Shown piece after piece: positions 14,176 through 21,584 of a stretch of 34,328 nucleotides of DNA (the stretch's first letter is position 1; each line of letters begins with the position of its first letter). The translations under genes and the position numbers were made by a program. The stretch spans positions 62,001-96,328 of IMG/VR virus record IMGVR_UViG_3300002460_000002; one strand, given 5' to 3'. Source of the stretch: an uncultured virus (IMG/VR IMGVR_UViG_3300002460_000002) (taxonomy: Duplodnaviria > Heunggongvirae > Uroviricota > Caudoviricetes). The notes under the pieces were generated by a model. It was not told the origin of the DNA. It made no database searches and was given only the letters and a program-made list of their open reading frames with translations.

Positions 14176-14886
14176 GTGACCCCCCTCCGCCCTTTCTTCT
14201 CGTACTACGGCTCGAAATGGCTTCTGGCGAAGCACTACCCCCAGCCGGAGCACGACCTGATCATCGAGCCGTTCGCGGGAAGCGCTGGGTACGCGACCCG
14301 GTACCACGACCGCAACGTCGTGCTCTCGGACACGAATCCGATCATCGCGGGTGTCTGGAACTACCTGATCAAGTCCCGCGCGTCGACCATCATGAAGCTG
14401 CCGGCGCCGGTGGATTGTGTCGACGATCTCCACGCTTGTCAGGAAGCCCGGTGGTTGGTCGGCTTCTGGCTCGGGCGCGCGTCCCACGGACCAAGGCGTA
14501 CGCTTTCAGCATGGGGACGTGACGGTAGATGGCCGATGTGTTTCTGGGGCGAATCAATTCGCGAACGCATCGCCCGGCAGGTCGAGTACATCCGGCACTG
14601 GAAAGTTCACCACACGTCCTACGAGAATTTCTACCCGCCTGTGCTCAAACACGTGAAGGCAACCTGGTTCGTCGACCCGCCGTACGAGCGCCAAGGCAAG
14701 TATTACAACGGAGAGGCGCTCAACTATCCGGCGCTGGCCGAATGGTGCCGCGAGCGCCGCGGCCAGGTCATCGTCTGCGAGAACGAAGGCGCGAAGTGGC
14801 TTCCGTTCAAGCCCTTCCGCACAGCGCGCGCGAACTCAAGCCGGGGCAAGGGGCGGGTTTCGCACGAGGTGATCTGGACGTCATGA
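14176..14886 (+). CDS. DNA adenine methyltransferase (Dam/D12-like)
   Basis: RPFFSYYGSK, IEPFAGSAG (motif I) and FVDPPY (motif IV). Confidence 0.9.
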   Translation: MTPLRPFFSYYGSKWLLAKHYPQPEHDLIIEPFAGSAGYATRYHDRNVVLSDTNPIIAGVWNYLIKSRASTIMKLPAPVDCVDDLHACQEARWLVGFWLGRASHGPRRTLSAWGRDGRWPMCFWGESIRERIARQVEYIRHWKVHHTSYENFYPPVLKHVKATWFVDPPYERQGKYYNGEALNYPALAEWCRERRGQVIVCENEGAKWLPFKPFRTARANSSRGKGRVSHEVIWTS

Positions 14887-15875
14887 CCGCCTACTACAAC
14901 GAAATCGAGCCGTACTGCGCCGAGTGGCTTCGGAACCTCATCAAGGCCGGGCATATTGCTCCGGGGGACGTGGACGATCGTGACATCAAAGAAGTTTCGG
15001 CGGCGGATCTTAAAGCGTACACGCAATGTCACTTCTTCACGGGCGTGGGAATTTGGTCCTACTCCCTCCGTCAAGCCGGATGGCCCGACGATCGACCGGT
15101 TTGGTCAGGGAGCGCACCTTGTCAGCCCTTCAGCGCGGCCGGGAAAAAGAAAGGGACCGCCGACAAGCGCCACCTCTGGCCCGACTTCTTCCGGCTCATC
15201 CGCGAGTGTCGCCCTGACGTTGTCTTTGGTGAACAAGTTTCGAGTAAGGACGGCCTCGCTTGGTTCGACGCTGTTTCGGCTGACTGTGAAGGAGCGGGTT
15301 ACGCCATTGGGGCGCTTGATTCCTGCGCTGCGTGGGTCGGTGCTCCGCAACTCCGCCACCGTTTGTATTTCGTGGCCGAATCCAAGGGCGAGCGACGGCG
15401 AAAAGAACGTGAGGACGCTGGCCGGGGCGGAGGCGGAGGCGGAGAGGAGAGGTTGGAACAACGATCTGAACACGGCGGCGTTGGCGTCGTGGCCTGCACC
15501 GAAGGCGATCAGCGGCGGCCCGAACAGCAAGCGGGCGGAGCGCGGGGCGGGTGGTCCCGATCTGCAAGAAGTGGCGTCCTGGGCAACAACAACAACACGG
15601 GACCACAAGTCGGACCGCTCGCGGATGACGGACAGCGAGCTTTACGGATCGAAGGGCCGGCCGCTGGCGAGGCAGGTGTTGTCAGCGGTTTCTGGCGAGA
15701 CGCCGACCTCATCTGGTGCCGGGACGGAAAGTACCGGCCTGTTGGATCCGGAACATTCCCGCTGGCTCCAAGCAATCCCGGCCGCGTGGGAAAATTGCGC
15801 GCCTACGGGAACAGCCTCGTCGCGGCGCACGCGGCGGAGTTCGTGAAGTCGTACATCGAGGTCACCCGTGGCTAA
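14883..15875 (+). CDS. dcm: DNA cytosine-C5 methyltransferase (main/alpha frame)
   Basis: The true start is ATG 14883 (MTAYYNEIEP). Motifs HFFTGVG, SAPCQPFS (catalytic PC), FGEQV, PQLRHRLYFVA and C-terminal LRAYGNSLV. Confidence 0.9.
   Translation: MTAYYNEIEPYCAEWLRNLIKAGHIAPGDVDDRDIKEVSAADLKAYTQCHFFTGVGIWSYSLRQAGWPDDRPVWSGSAPCQPFSAAGKKKGTADKRHLWPDFFRLIRECRPDVVFGEQVSSKDGLAWFDAVSADCEGAGYAIGALDSCAAWVGAPQLRHRLYFVAESKGERRRKEREDAGRGGGGGGEERLEQRSEHGGVGVVACTEGDQRRPEQQAGGARGGWSRSARSGVLGNNNNTGPQVGPLADDGQRALRIEGPAAGEAGVVSGFWRDADLIWCRDGKYRPVGSGTFPLAPSNPGRVGKLRAYGNSLVAAHAAEFVKSYIEVTRG
14956..15846 (+). CDS. Putative overlapping beta subunit of the C5 MTase (alternative frame; start uncertain)
   Basis: 296-codon open frame nested in dcm. 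Contains repeated SW(P/A)xPxxxD units and LLDPEHSRWLQAIPAAW, a motif IX-like sequence missing from the main frame. Confidence 0.6.
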   Translation: MLRGTWTIVTSKKFRRRILKRTRNVTSSRAWEFGPTPSVKPDGPTIDRFGQGAHLVSPSARPGKRKGPPTSATSGPTSSGSSASVALTLSLVNKFRVRTASLGSTLFRLTVKERVTPLGRLIPALRGSVLRNSATVCISWPNPRASDGEKNVRTLAGAEAEAERRGWNNDLNTAALASWPAPKAISGGPNSKRAERGAGGPDLQEVASWATTTTRDHKSDRSRMTDSELYGSKGRPLARQVLSAVSGETPTSSGAGTESTGLLDPEHSRWLQAIPAAWENCAPTGTASSRRTRRSS

Positions 15876-16509
15876 AGTCGTCGAATCCAAGTCCAAGAAA
15901 GACGTTCGAGACGTCCGGGCGTTCGAGGAAAAGCGCGTGCTCGCGATCCCCCAGGCTCTGCTCCTAGAGCAGACGCTGGCTCGGCAGATCACGAGCGGAG
16001 ACTGGTCTTCACAGCAAGATGCTTTCGCCTTCCGAACCTTGCTTCGCACCGGCCTGCGCCGGTTCGAGTTCTGCAAGCTCCGTGTCGGCGACTTCGTCGG
16101 AGATCGGCTGCACGTGATCGGAAAAGGCAACCTCAGAGACTTCGTGCCGTTGCCGGAGCCCGCCGTCACGACATTGAGCCAGTGGTTGGTCGTCAAGCAA
16201 GAAAAGGGTGAGTCGGTCGAGTCTAAGGCGTTCCTTTTTCTCGGCCGCGGCGACGGCCCGATGAGCTTTTCGCTCCTGCGGCTGCGCTGGAAGAAGATGT
16301 TGGCGCTCGCCGGGCTGAAGGATCATTACGGACTTCATACACTTCGGCACACGGCTGGGCTGTTGGTGTACGCCGCGACCGGCGACCTGGCCAAGACGGC
16401 GCGGTTCCTCCGGCACACCGACACGAAGACGACGGCCGACTTTTATCTGCACGTGGATGCGGATCAACTCCGAGCGGATCTATCGAAGATAGATGTGTGG
16501 AAGCTGTGA
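15868..16509 (+). CDS. Tyrosine recombinase/integrase (catalytic domain only)
   Basis: TGLRRFE (R), GKG (K), HTLRH (HxxR), LRH and TTADFYLH (Y). Only 213 aa. Confidence 0.9.
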   Translation: MAKVVESKSKKDVRDVRAFEEKRVLAIPQALLLEQTLARQITSGDWSSQQDAFAFRTLLRTGLRRFEFCKLRVGDFVGDRLHVIGKGNLRDFVPLPEPAVTTLSQWLVVKQEKGESVESKAFLFLGRGDGPMSFSLLRLRWKKMLALAGLKDHYGLHTLRHTAGLLVYAATGDLAKTARFLRHTDTKTTADFYLHVDADQLRADLSKIDVWKL

Positions 16510-18631: not shown

Positions 18632-18837
18632 TGGGCCGCTCAGCACACATCCGGGCCCGTCGTCGGCGTCGCGCTCGCCTCTCGGGGCGCTTGCAGGAAG
18701 AGCAGGGCGCCCGGTACATCACCCGGGTCGAGATGCGGGTTGCCGCCTGGAACAGCTTTACCGAGAGCAAGGAGCGTGAGAAGGCTGCTCGGGCGATGGA
18801 GTTGGTGAAGTACCCCGTGAGGAAGGCTCCACGGTGA
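18631..18837 (+). CDS. Arg-rich hypothetical protein
   Basis: Coupled ORF in the operon. Confidence 0.5.
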   Translation: MGRSAHIRARRRRRARLSGRLQEEQGARYITRVEMRVAAWNSFTESKEREKAARAMELVKYPVRKAPR

Positions 18838-19145
18838 CGCCTCCCAAGATCCACCGCTACGCCGTCATTTCTCACAATAGACAACCTGACGGAACAGCAA
18901 AAACTACAATTCATCACCCCGACGGTACCAAGACCCACCCGCTCACCCCGACGGCGCTCGCCACGCTCCGGCAACTCACGGTGCATCCGATTCCTAAGTA
19001 CAAGGTTAACCCAGGCCTGATCAGGCGGCTCGTACTCGAGAAGCTCGTGGAGGTAGCCGACCTGCCGTTTCAGTTCAAGAACGGCGTCCGGGACGTGCCG
19101 CACTTACGGATCACCGCGGTGGGGTGGAAAAGGGTTGGCGGGTGA
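18834..19145 (+). CDS. Hypothetical protein, possible winged helix
   Basis: LIRRLVLEKLVE...LRITAVG. Confidence 0.55.
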   Translation: MTPPKIHRYAVISHNRQPDGTAKTTIHHPDGTKTHPLTPTALATLRQLTVHPIPKYKVNPGLIRRLVLEKLVEVADLPFQFKNGVRDVPHLRITAVGWKRVGG

Positions 19146-19195
19146 ATAATCTAGGAATCAAAAACGTTAGTAGAAAATAAAAAAGGAGCCTCTCA
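19146..19195 (+). promoter_or_regulatory. AT-rich leader and RBS of the RAMP-like gene
   Basis: AT-rich intergenic stretch in a GC-rich genome. AAAGGAG (19182-19188) lies 7 nt before ATG 19196. Confidence 0.6.
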
Positions 19196-20047
19196 ATGGA
19201 AACCACGATCGAAACAGAGCCTGTGAGTGTCCCGAAGAAAACAGTGACGACAATGCCGGAACTGACCTCAGATCCGTCGAAGATCAAGATCCCGGGGCAG
19301 GAGTACCTGTGCTACGAGATTGAGTTGACGGGCATTCTGCCGGGCGTTCTCATGAATCGTCTGGATGAATCTGTGCTGTCGTTCCCCGGAGTGAGATCCA
19401 TGGATCGGCCGGCGAAAGGAAACATCTCCAAGACGAAGCCACCCAAAGCCGCAGCTTCCAACATCGTCGCCAGCGGTGAAGCGGCGGAAGTGGCGCACGT
19501 CGACCTGAAAGCGGCCTATCGCGCGGCTCGGGGGGTTTCGTACCTCATGCCAGGTAGTGACACGCTCTGTTGCCCGGTCGACAATCTGCAAGCGATGCTG
19601 CTCGCCGCCGCGCGCCGATGGCCGGGTAGTGGACTTTTGCAAGCCGCCGGTGCCAGCTTGTTTTTTGAGGAGAACTACCTCCCGTTTCTTCATCCGACGA
19701 AGAACGAGCCCATGATTTTGAAACCGCAAGGTGAGGTGGATTTGGTCTATCACACGCGGATGAAGGAGCCGACTCCGGACCCGTTGATCTTGGTCAAGCC
19801 TGCCAAGAGTTCCCGCGGAAACCGGATTCTCACCGCCCGGGTTTTCTTGTCGCAGTGGAGGCTGATTTTTCGTGTCCTCTACGATGCTGTCATGATCAGC
19901 AAGAAGGCTGCCGAGGAGATCCTGCTGCCGCAGCTTTGGACGTTCGGTGGCGGCCACATCGGTCTGATGTCCTGGCGTCCAGGGGCGGAAGCAGGGCCTG
20001 GTCCTCACGGAAGGTATCAGGTCACGAAGTATAAGTTCATCAAATAA
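19196..20047 (+). CDS. Solitary RAMP/Cas7-like RNA-binding protein (Vipr-like), 283 aa
   Basis: RAMP-ordered motifs: YEIELTGILPGVLMNR (first strand), LCCPVDNLQAMLLAAA (cf. Cas7/Csm3 'IPGSSLKG.LR'), WRLIFRVLYD, and the C-terminal Gly-rich loop GGGHIGLMSWRPGAEAGPGPHGRYQV. Directly followed by a repeat array. Confidence 0.75.
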   Translation: METTIETEPVSVPKKTVTTMPELTSDPSKIKIPGQEYLCYEIELTGILPGVLMNRLDESVLSFPGVRSMDRPAKGNISKTKPPKAAASNIVASGEAAEVAHVDLKAAYRAARGVSYLMPGSDTLCCPVDNLQAMLLAAARRWPGSGLLQAAGASLFFEENYLPFLHPTKNEPMILKPQGEVDLVYHTRMKEPTPDPLILVKPAKSSRGNRILTARVFLSQWRLIFRVLYDAVMISKKAAEEILLPQLWTFGGGHIGLMSWRPGAEAGPGPHGRYQVTKYKFIK

Positions 20048-20460
20048 AACCCGTAGCGCACGGCAGTGCCGGTCGCGGTATTGTTCGGTCTCGCAAACGC
20101 AAAGGAATTTTTTAAGGAACATAGTGTCGCCACGCTAAGCCGCGTTTTGCAGCGCAAGGCTTCGCCGAGTAAAAAGCAAAGGAAATTTTTAGTGGACAAC
20201 GTTAAGCCACGCCTAGCGCGGCAAAGCTGAGAAGAAGCAAAGGTAATTTTTCGGTGTACAGCGCAAAGCGTCGTGATGCGAAGTACAGCGAGGTCCCGCG
20301 AATCAAAGGAAATATTTTAATACTAAAGCAAAGCTGTGCCGCGTTTCGCATAGCAAAGCCAGGTCACGTCGGGTAAAAGCAAAGGTAATTTTTCAATATG
20401 GCAATGAGGTGTCTGGCACGGTTATGCCGTGTTATGCACAAATACAGCAAAGGAAATTCT
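20048..20460 (+). ncRNA. Putative guide-RNA array: six units of (GY-NNN)n pentamers, each ending in GCAAAGG(A/T)AATTTTT
   Basis: Delimiters start at 20099, 20176, 20237, 20303, 20379 and 20447. GY occurs at exact 5-nt spacing inside every unit (49 of 52 phased positions by hand count). Confidence 0.8.
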
Positions 20461-21183
20461 ATGTTGATACTGTTGGAAGAAATCGAATGGGACGAGAACT
20501 TGTACCCGCGTGTCCAGGTGGACTGGAAGACGGAGTACGAGTACAGCGACGCGATGAAGGCCGGAGATGTCTTTCCGCCAATCGAGGTGGTCAAGAAAGA
20601 CGGGAAATATCTCGGCCTTGATGGACGGCACCGGTGGGGCGCAGCCAAGCGTCTGGGCCGGAAAGAAATCGAGGCGAAGGTCATCACGCTCGTTCAGAAG
20701 GAGTGGTTCGTCCACGCTGTCGCCTGCAACATCAAACATGGCAGGCGCCTTTCAACTTTCGAGAAGGTCAAGATTGCGCAACGGCTACGTGAAAACTTCG
20801 GTGTTCCTGTGGGTCGAATCGCGAGCATTTTGGCGATGCCGAAGCTGAGTCTCAGCCGTTTATTGAACAGACGTCTCTCTGCACCTACCGGCGCCTTGGG
20901 TGGCGTCGATACCAAAAGCGGTTTGTTTACGCAATCCCAGATCGCGTTGAAGGCTCCTTTTCAACATCTTGCGGGGCGTGCGGTGGGCTCGGAAGTCGAA
21001 ACAGCACAGTTACCTCAGAGTTCCCAAAGCCACGCCATTTTGCTGAACCAGGTTCTCGCGATCATGCAGGCCGATGCTTTCGACCTGGAAAACGAAGAAG
21101 TTCATGAGAAACTAGAACAGATTTTTGTTTGGTTGAGCGACAACACGGGCCGTATCTACGGAAGATCTCGAAAACGCAAATGA
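20461..21183 (+). CDS. ParB/Srx N-terminal domain protein with HTH-like region
   Basis: Start ATG 20461 (MLILLEEIEWDENLYPR). FPPIEVV...YLGLDGRHRWGAAKRLG, NIKHGRRLS, then a helix-turn-helix-like segment. Confidence 0.85.
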   Translation: MLILLEEIEWDENLYPRVQVDWKTEYEYSDAMKAGDVFPPIEVVKKDGKYLGLDGRHRWGAAKRLGRKEIEAKVITLVQKEWFVHAVACNIKHGRRLSTFEKVKIAQRLRENFGVPVGRIASILAMPKLSLSRLLNRRLSAPTGALGGVDTKSGLFTQSQIALKAPFQHLAGRAVGSEVETAQLPQSSQSHAILLNQVLAIMQADAFDLENEEVHEKLEQIFVWLSDNTGRIYGRSRKRK

Positions 21184-21419
21184 AAACCTGGCTTCTCGTC
21201 GACCATGAAGGTGAGCCGCGCGACCGCTGGGAGTCGCGCGAGATGCCCATCACCGAAGCCTTCTTCCGAGCCGGGCGCAGTCCACAAAACCTCAAGGTCT
21301 GGCTCCACCGCGAGGGTGACGGTTTGTACGAAGCCGCCATCGGGACCGAGGAAGAGGTCACGGAGCTGTGGCCGCGGGGAGCGACGTTGGCGGAAGTGGC
21401 GCGGGAGGAGCGGACGTGA
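21180..21419 (+). CDS. Hypothetical protein
   Basis: ATGA-coupled MKTWLLVDHE... Confidence 0.55.
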   Translation: MKTWLLVDHEGEPRDRWESREMPITEAFFRAGRSPQNLKVWLHREGDGLYEAAIGTEEEVTELWPRGATLAEVAREERT

Positions 21420-21584
21420 TCACCCCCGACAAGCTCTTCCTCGTGATCAAGAAAACCGTGCTCGGCCTCGGCATGAGCGACCTGATCGGCCTCGGCATGT
21501 CCAACCCCAAGAGCTACACGGACCTCTCGCCGGCCTTGAAGGCGGCGTTCGAGAAGGCCGCGGCGGAGTTGAACGAGAAATAAA

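What the first reader, a model, noticed from the sequence alone, without database searches (positions are those of the whole stretch)
20048..20460. Two-level repeat grammar: strict 5-nt GY-NNN periodicity inside delimiter-bounded units
The delimiter GCAAAGG(A/T)AATTTTT starts at 20099, 20176, 20237, 20303 (TCAAAGGAAATATTTT), 20379 and 20447, with spacings 77, 61, 66, 76 and 68. The apparently unique spacers carry GY every 5 nt. Unit 1, 20053-20093: 8/9. Unit 2, 20124-20169: 10/10 (GTGTC GCCAC GCTAA GCCGC GTTTT GCAGC GCAAG GCTTC GCCGA GTAAA). Unit 3, 20201-20231: 6/7. Unit 4, 20263-20298: 8/8. Unit 5, 20328-20373: 10/10. Unit 6, 20401-20436: 7/8. In units 2-4 the phase position just before the first GY is AC. 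The three intervening bases vary freely, and the base before GY is not G-biased, unlike a GGY code. Period 5 excludes codon bias, and the variability excludes a slippage microsatellite. CRISPR finders would probably miss it.
Basis: seen in the sequence. Interest (0 to 1): 0.9.

Follow-up and report, generated by a model that had tools for sequence, protein, structure and literature searches.

The report
Phage VIPR guide-RNA array, relaxed code
The odd 5-base rhythm is real and marks a tandem set of six guide RNAs of a VIPR system, a phage RNA-guided gene-silencing system first described in 2026, here in a relaxed form of its repeat code.

Summary
In 20048-20460, 49 of 51 in-phase pentamers start with G-pyrimidine and the other three positions sit at background composition. 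The lag-5 autocorrelation is 43 against 12.7±3.1, reached by 0 of 2000 shuffles. A 15-19 nt motif recurs six times.

The region is a VIPR (Viral Interference Programmable Repeat) guide-RNA array, a system described in three 2026 bioRxiv preprints. The gene ending 5 nt upstream (19196-20047, 283 aa) is a divergent Vipr protein, a relative of CRISPR Cas7/Csm3. A family profile built without it matches it at 97% probability and finds only this ORF in the 96-kb phage genome. The family profile that includes it also matches the solved "SUSP1 Vipr protein" (PDB 36pp, E 4e-33).

A DNA-only scan for the same grammar returned 22 distinct viral loci. Sixteen carry a Vipr homologue next to long pentamer arrays.

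The window uses GYNNN instead of the canonical GGYNN. The discovery paper's methods already list this alternative as "YNNNG".

Verdict: a new member of a known kind. The targeting rule of this relaxed code, its targets, and the role of the ParB-like neighbour remain open.

The parts
19196..20047 (+). vipr gene: a divergent 283-aa Vipr (RAMP-fold, Cas7/Csm3-like) protein, P0004
   Evidence: hhalign of a 15-member family profile built without the window protein, against P0004+P0005: probability 97.1%, E 5.9e-11, 126 columns. The HMM of that profile finds only this ORF among all six-frame ORFs of at least 50 aa in the 96-kb genome, E 9e-11. The family profile that includes it matches PDB 36pp_D 'SUSP1 Vipr protein' at E 4.1e-33. 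P0004 alone has no Pfam or PHROG hit.
20053..20113 (+). vrRNA 1: 9 pentamers (8 GY) at 20053-20097, then tail motif at 20099-20113
20124..20190 (+). vrRNA 2: 10 of 10 GY pentamers at 20124-20173, then tail at 20176-20190
20201..20251 (+). vrRNA 3: 6 of 6 GY pentamers at 20201-20230 (a seventh in-phase pentamer is not GY), then tail at 20237-20251
20263..20318 (+). vrRNA 4: 8 of 8 GY pentamers at 20263-20302, then the most diverged tail copy at 20303-20318
20328..20393 (+). vrRNA 5: 10 of 10 GY pentamers at 20328-20377, then tail at 20379-20393
20401..20461 (+). vrRNA 6: 8 pentamers (7 GY) at 20401-20440, then tail at 20447-20461, whose AAAGGA also lies 6 nt before the ATG of the next gene
20461..21183 (+). 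ParB_N-like protein with a helix-turn-helix-like middle part (240 aa, P0001); candidate accessory (vap-like) gene, not shown to belong to the system
   Evidence: phrog_1033 at 3.6e-11; Pfam ParB_N at 0.0034, below cutoff. TIGR00180 at 4e-07, below cutoff. A full-length homologue (31% identity) in L127 is followed directly by a period-5 GY run. The 14 other ParB_N-like loci examined have no array, and the 15 screened (11 genome, L129-L131, L126) have no Vipr.

Best explanation
The 413-bp intergenic region is a tandem array of six VIPR guide RNAs (vrRNAs). It is read on the + strand and sits directly after the phage's only vipr gene.

By homology with the SUSP1 system, the region is probably transcribed together with vipr, and each unit becomes one small RNA. 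A unit consists of 6-10 pentamer repeats followed by a short conserved 3' tail (RCAAAGGWAATTTTT). Vipr protomers, which are RAMP proteins related to Cas7/Csm3, bind one per pentamer and form a helical filament. The filament sequesters the fixed bases, here G and the pyrimidine, which correspond to G2 and Y3 of the canonical GGY. It presents the variable bases for gapped pairing with double-stranded DNA of a competing mobile element and silences its transcription.

What is shown here is the sequence grammar, the Vipr homology, and the recurrence of the gene-plus-array pairing in other viral contigs. Transcription, processing, filament formation, the pairing rule for this relaxed GYNNN form, the targets, and any role of the downstream ParB-like gene are inferred from the published system.
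For: 1. Grammar. 49 of 51 pentamers are GY with unconstrained positions 3-5, and there are six conserved motifs.

2. Structure. The RNA is no more structured than shuffles on either strand (z -0.34 and -0.14; single units z -1.30 to +1.25). This fits a protein-bound single strand.

3. The upstream gene is a Vipr homologue. hhalign gives 97.1% probability and E 5.9e-11 with a profile that excludes it. It is the only hit of that HMM in the genome, E 9e-11. The family profile matches PDB 36pp_D 'SUSP1 Vipr protein' at E 4.1e-33. An AF2 model of family member L147 has pLDDT 95.1, and its top Foldseek hits are Csm3/Cas7 chains, E down to 6.3e-06.

4. Blind recurrence. A DNA-only pattern (tail motif plus 6 RC-phased pentamers) returned 25 stretches, 22 of them distinct. 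Twenty hold arrays far longer than the pattern demanded, and 16 hold a Vipr/phrog_4652 homologue within 3 kb.

5. Cultured phages. Those with phrog_4652 (a Felixounavirus related to SUSP1, Pseudomonas LESphi2 and Medea1) carry GGYNN arrays beside the gene.

6. Published description. The papers describe vipr plus flanking arrays of 9-16 pentamers with fixed GGY and hypervariable NN, followed by an invariable 3' tail. They also list the alternative consensuses NNNGG, YNNNG and NNNNG. One protomer binds per repeat. G2 is read by R138 and W178, and Y3 by R179. P0004 keeps R, W and R at the aligned columns.
Against: - P0004 alone hits nothing in Pfam, PHROGs or the PDB.
- hhalign covers only its C-terminal two thirds.
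- Its own AF2 model failed, with pLDDT 31.5 from a two-sequence alignment.
- The first G of the canonical GGY is not conserved, so the canonical consensus is not met.
- The tail is short and unstructured, unlike the 40-60 nt pseudoknot tail of the SUSP1 clade.
- The tracts have 6-10 repeats, where the paper gives 9-16.
- No homologue of the type II accessory protein Vap1 was found in the genome (best tblastn E 0.008).
- No convincing natural target was found.
- No promoter-like site lies in or just before the array, so its transcription rests on the operon context.
Confidence: 0.85

Rival explanations
1. The array is a centromere-like or operator DNA site for the downstream ParB-like protein. 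The six motifs would act as parS-like boxes and the phased GY tracts as spreading or wrapping DNA.
For: The array abuts the ParB_N-like gene, and the last motif overlaps its ribosome-binding site. The only full-length homologue with flanking DNA (L127) also has a GY run next to the gene.
Against: No inverted repeat was found in 19500-21100. A 5-bp period is half a helical turn and suits no known duplex-binding array (general knowledge). The same grammar lies beside Vipr genes in 16 loci whose ORFs do not match the ParB-like profile. None of the 14 other ParB_N-like loci examined has an array, and none of the 15 screened (11 genome, L129-L131, L126) has a Vipr.
Confidence: 0.04
2. The array is a binding platform or translational operator on the mRNA for some other ring or filament RNA-binding protein. 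It would resemble TRAP, with one subunit per 5 nt, and control the ParB-like gene.
For: The RNA is unstructured with a fixed dinucleotide every 5 nt. Runs of 35-50 nt end 5-8 nt before a Shine-Dalgarno-like AAAGGA. This was my working idea.
Against: It needs an unidentified protein, whereas a Vipr homologue sits 5 nt upstream. Five of the six units precede no credible gene. The published Vipr filament already explains one protomer per pentamer.
Confidence: 0.04
3. The array is a decaying or decoy VIPR array. It may have lost the first G and no longer guide anything, or it may serve only to soak up a rival's Vipr.
For: G1 is at background. The tracts are shorter than the published 9-16. No target was found. 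Solo and decoy vrRNAs are described for satellites (passages only).
Against: G and Y are kept in 49 of 51 pentamers, which argues for ongoing selection. Two other loci, L150 and L156, with their own Vipr genes show the same relaxed pattern over 102 and 61 pentamers. The paper lists YNNNG as a recurring consensus. The array was identical in the contigs of 4 further runs.
Confidence: 0.05
4. The array is a decayed pentanucleotide microsatellite or a chance pattern with no function.
For: The same genome holds a true (GCCCR)9 pentamer microsatellite.
Against: Positions 3-5 retain no memory of a unit (0.02-0.05 bits) while positions 1-2 are nearly invariant. None of 2000 shuffles reaches the observed phasing. 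Tandem Repeats Finder reports nothing here.
Confidence: 0.01

Closest known systems
VIPR systems (Viral Interference Programmable Repeat), best studied in type II of Escherichia phage SUSP1 and a Pseudomonas fulva prophage (bioRxiv 10.64898/2026.04.26.720920 = PMC13142463; 10.64898/2026.04.26.720927; 10.64898/2026.10.15.759431)
   Same: Both are phage-borne. Both have a small RAMP protein gene flanked by an intergenic array of pentamer repeats with fixed and hypervariable positions. Each tract is followed by an invariable 3' tail, and several guides stand in tandem. The residues that read G2 and Y3 (R138, W178, R179 in SUSP1 numbering) are kept in P0004.
   Different: - The fixed part is GY, not GGY. 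G at the first position is 0.23 here, against at least 0.84 in 12 of the 16 loci measured.
- Tracts have 6-10 repeats, not 9-16.
- The tail is about 15-19 nt and unstructured, not a 40-60 nt pseudoknot.
- The Vipr is 283 aa, with an N-terminal extension and insertions, against about 180-200 aa.
- No Vap1 homologue is present, and a ParB_N-like gene follows instead.
- 'ParB' does not occur in the main text of any of the three preprints or in the supplement PDF of the first. Their figures and data tables were not readable, so I cannot say which of the seven types this is.
Class 1 CRISPR-Cas backbone (Cas7/Csm3 filament on crRNA)
   Same: Both use a RAMP fold with a G-rich loop and thumb, and one protomer binds per fixed number of guide nucleotides with periodic base flipping. 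Foldseek places the family model next to Csm3 and type VII Cas7 (paper text).
   Different: The period is 5 nt, not 6. Two or three bases per unit are fixed by the protein, rather than one being flipped. There is no CRISPR repeat-spacer array and no cas genes: 30 ORFs of the window were scanned against Pfam and none matched a Cas family. There is no adaptation module.
TRAP (trp RNA-binding attenuation protein) sites of Bacillus
   Same: Both are unstructured RNA with a short fixed motif about every 5 nt over roughly 50 nt, read by one subunit per repeat (recalled knowledge, not from a call).
   Different: The TRAP motif is GAG/UAG, not GY. The protein is unrelated, TRAP forms a ring rather than a helical filament, and it has no guide function.

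Membership tests
VIPR system | A vipr gene (minimal RAMP protein) next to the array | tested here: met
   hhalign gives 97.1% probability and E 5.9e-11 with a profile that excludes the window protein. It is the sole HMM hit in the genome, E 9e-11. The family profile matches PDB 36pp_D 'SUSP1 Vipr protein' at E 4.1e-33. The gene ends 5 nt before the first pentamer.
VIPR system | Tandem pentamer repeats with conserved GGY alternating with hypervariable NN (canonical consensus) | tested here: not met
   G2 and Y3 are kept in 49 of 51 pentamers, but the G1 position is G in only about a quarter, which is background.
VIPR system | A 'related consensus' accepted by the authors (NNNGG, YNNNG, NNNNG) | tested here: met
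   GYNNN read in another register is YNNNG. It is listed in the methods of 10.64898/2026.04.26.720920. Two further loci with their own Vipr, L150 and L156, show it.
VIPR system | An invariable 3' tail after each repeat tract | tested here: met
   There are six copies of a 15-19 nt motif, one after each tract, 79-100% identical to the reference copy. No conserved fold or pseudoknot was found, unlike the SUSP1 clade.
VIPR system | Accessory vap gene | tested here: inconclusive
   No Vap1 homologue was found. The ParB_N-like neighbour recurs beside a GY run only in L127. The vap families of types I and III-VII are shown only in figures that I could not read.
VIPR system | vrRNAs are expressed, about 100 nt long, and co-purify with Vipr | not testable with these tools
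   No RNA run holding this DNA was listed. This is reported only as something tried.
VIPR system | Variable bases match natural targets under the NN-plus-one-skip rule | tested here: inconclusive
   The own genome gives a best match of 15 of 20, which is chance level. In viral contigs, guide 2 has 1 exact hit (L160) and guide 5 has none. No other guide matches that contig.
CRISPR array | Direct repeats of about 23-47 nt separating unique spacers of uniform length, with cas genes nearby | tested here: not met
   The conserved motif is 15-19 nt, unit lengths are 61-77 nt, and the 'spacers' are internally periodic. None of the 30 ORFs scanned matched a Cas family.
ParB-parS partition site | Palindromic parS boxes bound by the adjacent ParB | tested here: not met
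   There are 0 inverted repeats in 19500-21100. None of the 14 other ParB_N-like loci examined has such an array.

The most novel reading that the evidence does not exclude
In the relaxed GYNNN (YNNNG) class, the position that is G1 in canonical systems may have been freed from the protein and become a third guide base. Each protomer would then read a contiguous target triplet, with no skipped base, instead of two bases plus a skip. That would be a second, denser VIPR code.

Three weak hints point this way.

- Position 5 is as variable as positions 3 and 4.
- The aspartate that hydrogen-bonds G1 in SUSP1 (D177) is serine in 2 of the 3 relaxed-code Viprs and in 0 of the 13 GGY-type ones. However, R or T also occur there in GGY types, and the third relaxed one keeps D.
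- In the single exact hit of guide 2 (L160), 5 of the 9 'skip' positions also match the guide's third base, where about 2.25 are expected (my binomial P is about 0.05). That hit is itself compatible with chance, and its phase does not put the skip on codon position 3.
Probability: 0.15. Interest if true: 0.7.

Novelty: new member of a known kind. Interest (0 to 1): 0.45.

Why it matters
VIPR was described only in 2026, as an RNA-guided DNA-silencing system of phages that reads DNA through a gapped code and may predate CRISPR. This window adds a complete, uncultivated 96-kb groundwater/soil phage with an unusually clean relaxed array: six guides, with 49 of 51 pentamers GY. It also has a much larger Vipr, a minimal unstructured tail and a ParB-like neighbour.

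The published work characterises the GGY/NN rule, but in the text I could read it only names the YNNNG form. A compact natural locus like this one would make it directly testable whether the relaxed form uses the same two-plus-skip rule or a three-base rule.

The DNA-only scan also shows that a short tail ending in AAGG plus a T-run marks a whole set of metagenomic VIPR loci. In these, guides fill the gaps between consecutive genes.

Tried and rejected
- **Rfam.** Scanning 19000-21500 at E up to 10 gave 0 matches. Tandem Repeats Finder reports nothing in the array.
- **Folding.** Both strands and the single units have z-scores near 0, so a structured-RNA reading was dropped.
- **Earlier findings of this scan.** Three look-ups found nothing.
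- **Single-protein locus searches in viral contigs.** There were no usable loci for P0001 or P0004 and none for the L127 protein.
- **Exact delimiter scan of viral contigs.** It gave 119+ single, apparently chance hits, mostly in other contexts. Not informative.
- **Metagenome scan with the ParB-like alignment.** It returned 3 loci. L126 has no upstream DNA, L128 is unrelated in context, and L127 gave the lead.
- **Sequencing runs.** No RNA holder was listed. Contigs of 4 runs (X8, X9, X10, X12) showed no differing letter, indel or joint over 19700-20800, so there is no microdiversity to read.
- **AF2 of P0004 with a 2-sequence alignment.** pLDDT was 31.5, so the model is unusable and was not searched.
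- **ESM Atlas for P0004.** The nearest clusters are unnamed viral proteins of 188-285 aa. This is a lead only.
- **ParB-like as a general VIPR partner.** None of the 11 genome-contig loci, 3 viral loci or 3 GenBank phage loci has an array, and none of the 15 loci screened with the Vipr profile (11 genome, L129-L131, L126) has a Vipr; the 3 GenBank phage loci were scanned for arrays only. These share only the N-terminal domain at 30-37% identity.
- **Target search.**
  - Six rules were tried on the own genome. Only chance-level matches appeared, apart from the trivial self-match of the co-linear rule.
  - The NN-plus-skip patterns of guides 2 and 5 (first 9 repeats) in viral contigs gave 1 and 0 hits.
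  - The one hit, L160, lies in a 40.6% GC, 11.5-kb contig, inside an ORF with no PHROG match. No other guide hits that contig.
  - I treat this hit as compatible with chance. The collection's size is not given, so my expectation of roughly one to a few chance hits for 18 fixed bases is only an estimate.
  - Because the contiguous three-base rule is a subset of the scanned pattern, no perfect contiguous target of guides 2 or 5 exists in that collection.
- **Vap1-like proteins of three cultured phages, tblastn against the genome.** The best E was 0.008.
- **Promoter and terminator consensus scan of 18800-21300.** Nothing lies within the array on the + strand.
- **TRAP-like, centromere, origin-iteron and decayed-microsatellite readings.** I considered these before and set them aside, as given under the rival explanations.

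Full report
**Setting**

The window is bases 62001-96328 of a 96,328-bp IMG/VR virus record. The record has direct terminal repeats and is rated 100% complete; I find 76 identical terminal bases. The DNA occurs in groundwater and soil metagenomes.

The finding lies in the 413-bp gap between two + strand genes. Upstream is a 283-aa ORF (19196-20047, P0004) with no Pfam or PHROG match. Downstream is a 240-aa ParB_N-like ORF (20461-21183, P0001; phrog_1033 at 3.6e-11). The gap has lower G+C than its surroundings: 0.516 for 20001-21000, against about 0.58-0.60.

They are far more frequent than chance: 8 matches with up to 3 mismatches, against 0.77 expected. In the whole genome there are 6 forward and 0 reverse matches.

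Over 51 in-phase pentamers, position 1 is G in 50 and position 2 is a pyrimidine in 50 (32 C, 18 T). Positions 3-5 are at background, with 0.05, 0.04 and 0.02 bits.

The GY autocorrelation at lag 5 is 43, against 12.7±3.1 in 2000 dinucleotide-preserving shuffles, none of which reaches it. Lags 10, 15 and 20 are also unmatched.

In three units (starting 20099, 20176 and 20303) the motif itself stands in the same pentamer phase as the run that follows it. The region has no Rfam match. It folds no better than shuffled sequence on either strand.

**How the identity emerged**

Protein-based searches for relatives gave almost nothing. A metagenome scan with the ParB-like alignment returned a 1,582-bp contig, L127. 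Its ParB-like gene (31% identical over the full length) is followed by a period-5 GT run. That run ends in a motif resembling the window's delimiter.

I then scanned IMG/VR with a DNA-only pattern: the tail motif followed by six phased pentamers. It returned 25 stretches, 22 of them distinct. One is a chance match (L144) and one is a microsatellite (L155). The other 20 hold arrays much longer than the pattern asked for, 40-318 nt by a criterion of at least 7 of 8 in-phase pentamers being GY. There are often several arrays per contig. They typically start 0-6 nt after one gene's stop and end 13-30 nt before the next gene's start.

The tail motif in the matched copies is there by construction. 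Further arrays in the same contigs, which the pattern did not select, also end in AAGG followed by an A/T-rich stretch.

**The protein**

Sixteen of the 22 loci encode, within 3 kb, a 180-235 aa protein of one family. All 15 members tested match phrog_4652, which has no assigned function.

P0004 belongs to this family:
- A profile of 15 members without P0004 aligns to P0004+P0005 with 97.1% probability, E 5.9e-11, over 126 columns.
- The corresponding HMM finds only this ORF among all six-frame ORFs of the 96-kb genome, E 9e-11.
- The family profile matches one solved protein, PDB 36pp chain D, 'SUSP1 Vipr protein', E 4.1e-33.
- An AlphaFold model of member L147 has pLDDT 95.1. Its best Foldseek matches in the PDB are Csm3/Cas7 subunits of type III and type VII CRISPR complexes, E down to 6.3e-06.

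Cultured phages with phrog_4652 also carry GGYNN arrays next to the gene. These are 135 GenBank records, mostly Felixounavirus, plus Pseudomonas, Gordonia and Mycobacterium phages. I looked at VpaE1, LESphi2 and Medea1.

**What is published**

A literature search on the PDB name led to three 2026 bioRxiv preprints. A second search on the system's terms added only one more paper, which mentions the term once (listing only).

From 10.64898/2026.04.26.720920 (also PMC13142463) I read the outline, the whole Results, the methods section on type classification, and term-search passages of the main text and the supplement PDF. It makes these points:
- VIPR loci are mostly viral.
- They consist of vipr (a minimal RAMP), usually one accessory vap gene, and flanking intergenic arrays.
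- The arrays give vrRNAs of about 100 nt, made of 9-16 pentamers.
- In each pentamer GGY is conserved and NN is hypervariable, and the tract is followed by an invariable 3' tail.
- The NN bases pair with double-stranded DNA under a rule of two bases then one skipped.
- Natural targets are competing satellites and prophages.
- Seven types exist.

From 10.64898/2026.04.26.720927 I read the outline, the first part of the Results and passages. It reports:
- One protomer binds per repeat in a right-handed filament.
- G1 is read by H17 and D177.
- G2 is read by R138 and W178.
- Y3 sits in a pocket that includes R179.
- A pseudoknot caps the 3' end.

From 10.64898/2026.10.15.759431 I saw only passages and the abstract in the listing. 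It covers 10-12 repeats, tails of 40-60 nt, solo vrRNAs, and the requirement for Vap1.

**Reading the window with this knowledge**

The six runs are each followed by one conserved motif, so the natural units are tract plus tail:
- 20053-20113
- 20124-20190
- 20201-20251
- 20263-20318
- 20328-20393
- 20401-20461

Linkers of 7-11 nt separate them.

The fixed G-Y corresponds to G2-Y3 of the canonical motif, and the canonical G1 position is free. Among 16 loci with a Vipr, the fraction of G at that position is as follows:
- 0.15, 0.18 and 0.23 in L156, L150 and the window
- 0.65 in L147
- 0.84-0.98 in the other 12

P0004 keeps the residues aligned to R138, W178 and R179. It has N at the H17 column and S at the D177 column. 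Serine at the D177 column occurs in 2 of the 3 relaxed-code proteins and in none of the 13 others. However, GGY-type proteins also carry R or T there, and L156 keeps D, so this is only a hint.

The tail is short and unstructured. Its sixth copy also provides the AAAGGA that lies 6 nt before the ATG of the ParB-like gene. In several other loci the corresponding AAGG lies at Shine-Dalgarno distance from the next gene. The motif may therefore double as a ribosome-binding region. In the window, five of the six copies precede no credible gene.

I found no promoter-like or terminator-like site on the + strand within the array. Co-transcription with vipr followed by processing is an inference.

**The ParB-like neighbour**

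Its family is large: 5,050 representatives at E up to 0.001, of which 6 reach 1e-30. Only the window and L127 pair it with an array. Eleven genome loci, three viral loci and three GenBank phage loci that share its N-terminal domain have no array, and the 15 loci screened with the Vipr profile (the 11 genome loci, L129-L131 and L126) have no Vipr; the GenBank phage loci were not screened for one.

The genome has no detectable homologue of the type II Vap1. The word 'ParB' does not occur in the main texts of the three preprints or in the supplement PDF of the first. The figures that show the vap genes of the other types could not be read. Whether this gene is a vap therefore stays open.

**Targets**

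No guide matches the phage's own genome above chance under six pairing schemes. Exact scans of IMG/VR used the two-plus-skip patterns of guides 2 and 5 (first nine repeats). They gave one hit and none.

The hit, L160, has these features:
- It lies inside an ORF of a 40.6% G+C contig.
- It matches 19 of 20 guide positions, and 5 of 9 'skip' positions.
- No other guide matches that contig.
- The phase puts the skip on codon position 1, not on the wobble position.

I regard it as compatible with chance. It leaves a small opening for a three-base code, which I give as the novel case.

**Verdict**

The region is a VIPR vrRNA array beside a divergent vipr gene. It is real and correctly observed, and it belongs to a kind of system that is already described, including its relaxed YNNNG consensus. 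It is a new member with some unusual traits: a 283-aa Vipr, a minimal tail, six short guides and a ParB-like neighbour. The pairing rule and the targets of the relaxed code are the open questions it could help answer.

Noticed in passing
G000:C1:37389-37430 (own genome, outside the window): A simple pentamer repeat, (GCCCR)9. Read on the minus strand it is (YGGGC)9, that is GGC plus a two-base YG, in the form of a canonical GGYNN tract with almost no information. It lies beside two to three copies of a 28-nt direct repeat and G+C-rich palindromic stretches. The genome has no second Vipr. Whether it is a solo vrRNA-like element or just a microsatellite is open.
   Followed up: partly
L127:691-801: In an A+T-rich metagenome contig, a period-5 GT run of 12 pentamers (11 GY) follows a full-length homologue of the window's ParB-like gene. 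It ends in a delimiter-like AAGGAATTTT, 13 nt before the ATG of a 108-aa CxxC...CxxC protein. A 90-aa paralogue follows. The contig is too short to show a vipr gene.
   Followed up: partly
L132-L156 (viral contigs): In this short-tail group, vrRNA-like arrays fill the gaps between several consecutive genes: 5 arrays in 6 kb of L135, 4 in L140 and L143. This differs from a single array beside vipr. L140/L141 arrays are bipartite, joined by a conserved ~29-nt non-periodic piece.
   Followed up: partly
L133 (oriented as): By eye, a TTTACA-17-TATAAT promoter-like site lies immediately upstream of the array. A second one lies immediately after its AAGGAATTTT end. This suggests single-guide transcription units in that contig. 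Not tested with the promoter scan.
   Followed up: no
Alignment A6, column aligned to SUSP1 D177: Serine replaces the G1-contacting aspartate in 2 of 3 relaxed-code (GYNNN) Viprs (window, L150) and in 0 of 13 GGY-type ones. GGY types carry D (7), R (4) or T (2) there. The sample is small and the proteins are not independent.
   Followed up: partly
window 20398-20460: An in-frame ATG at 20398 would extend the ParB-like ORF by 21 codons across guide 6. The protein collection holds a 149-aa record (P0003) that starts there and then departs from the frame of P0001.
   Followed up: no
L159 (Escherichia phage VpaE1, NC_027337.1 54642-63205): This Felixounavirus has three GGTNN arrays upstream of the vipr homologue gp091 and two downstream of gp092. 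Each is followed by a hairpin-containing tail, and the region is annotated only as hypothetical proteins.
   Followed up: partly
window 14529-16509: A C-5 cytosine DNA methyltransferase (448 aa, phrog_363 at 1.4e-71) overlaps by 8 nt the start of a short (213 aa) tyrosine-recombinase-like ORF.
   Followed up: no
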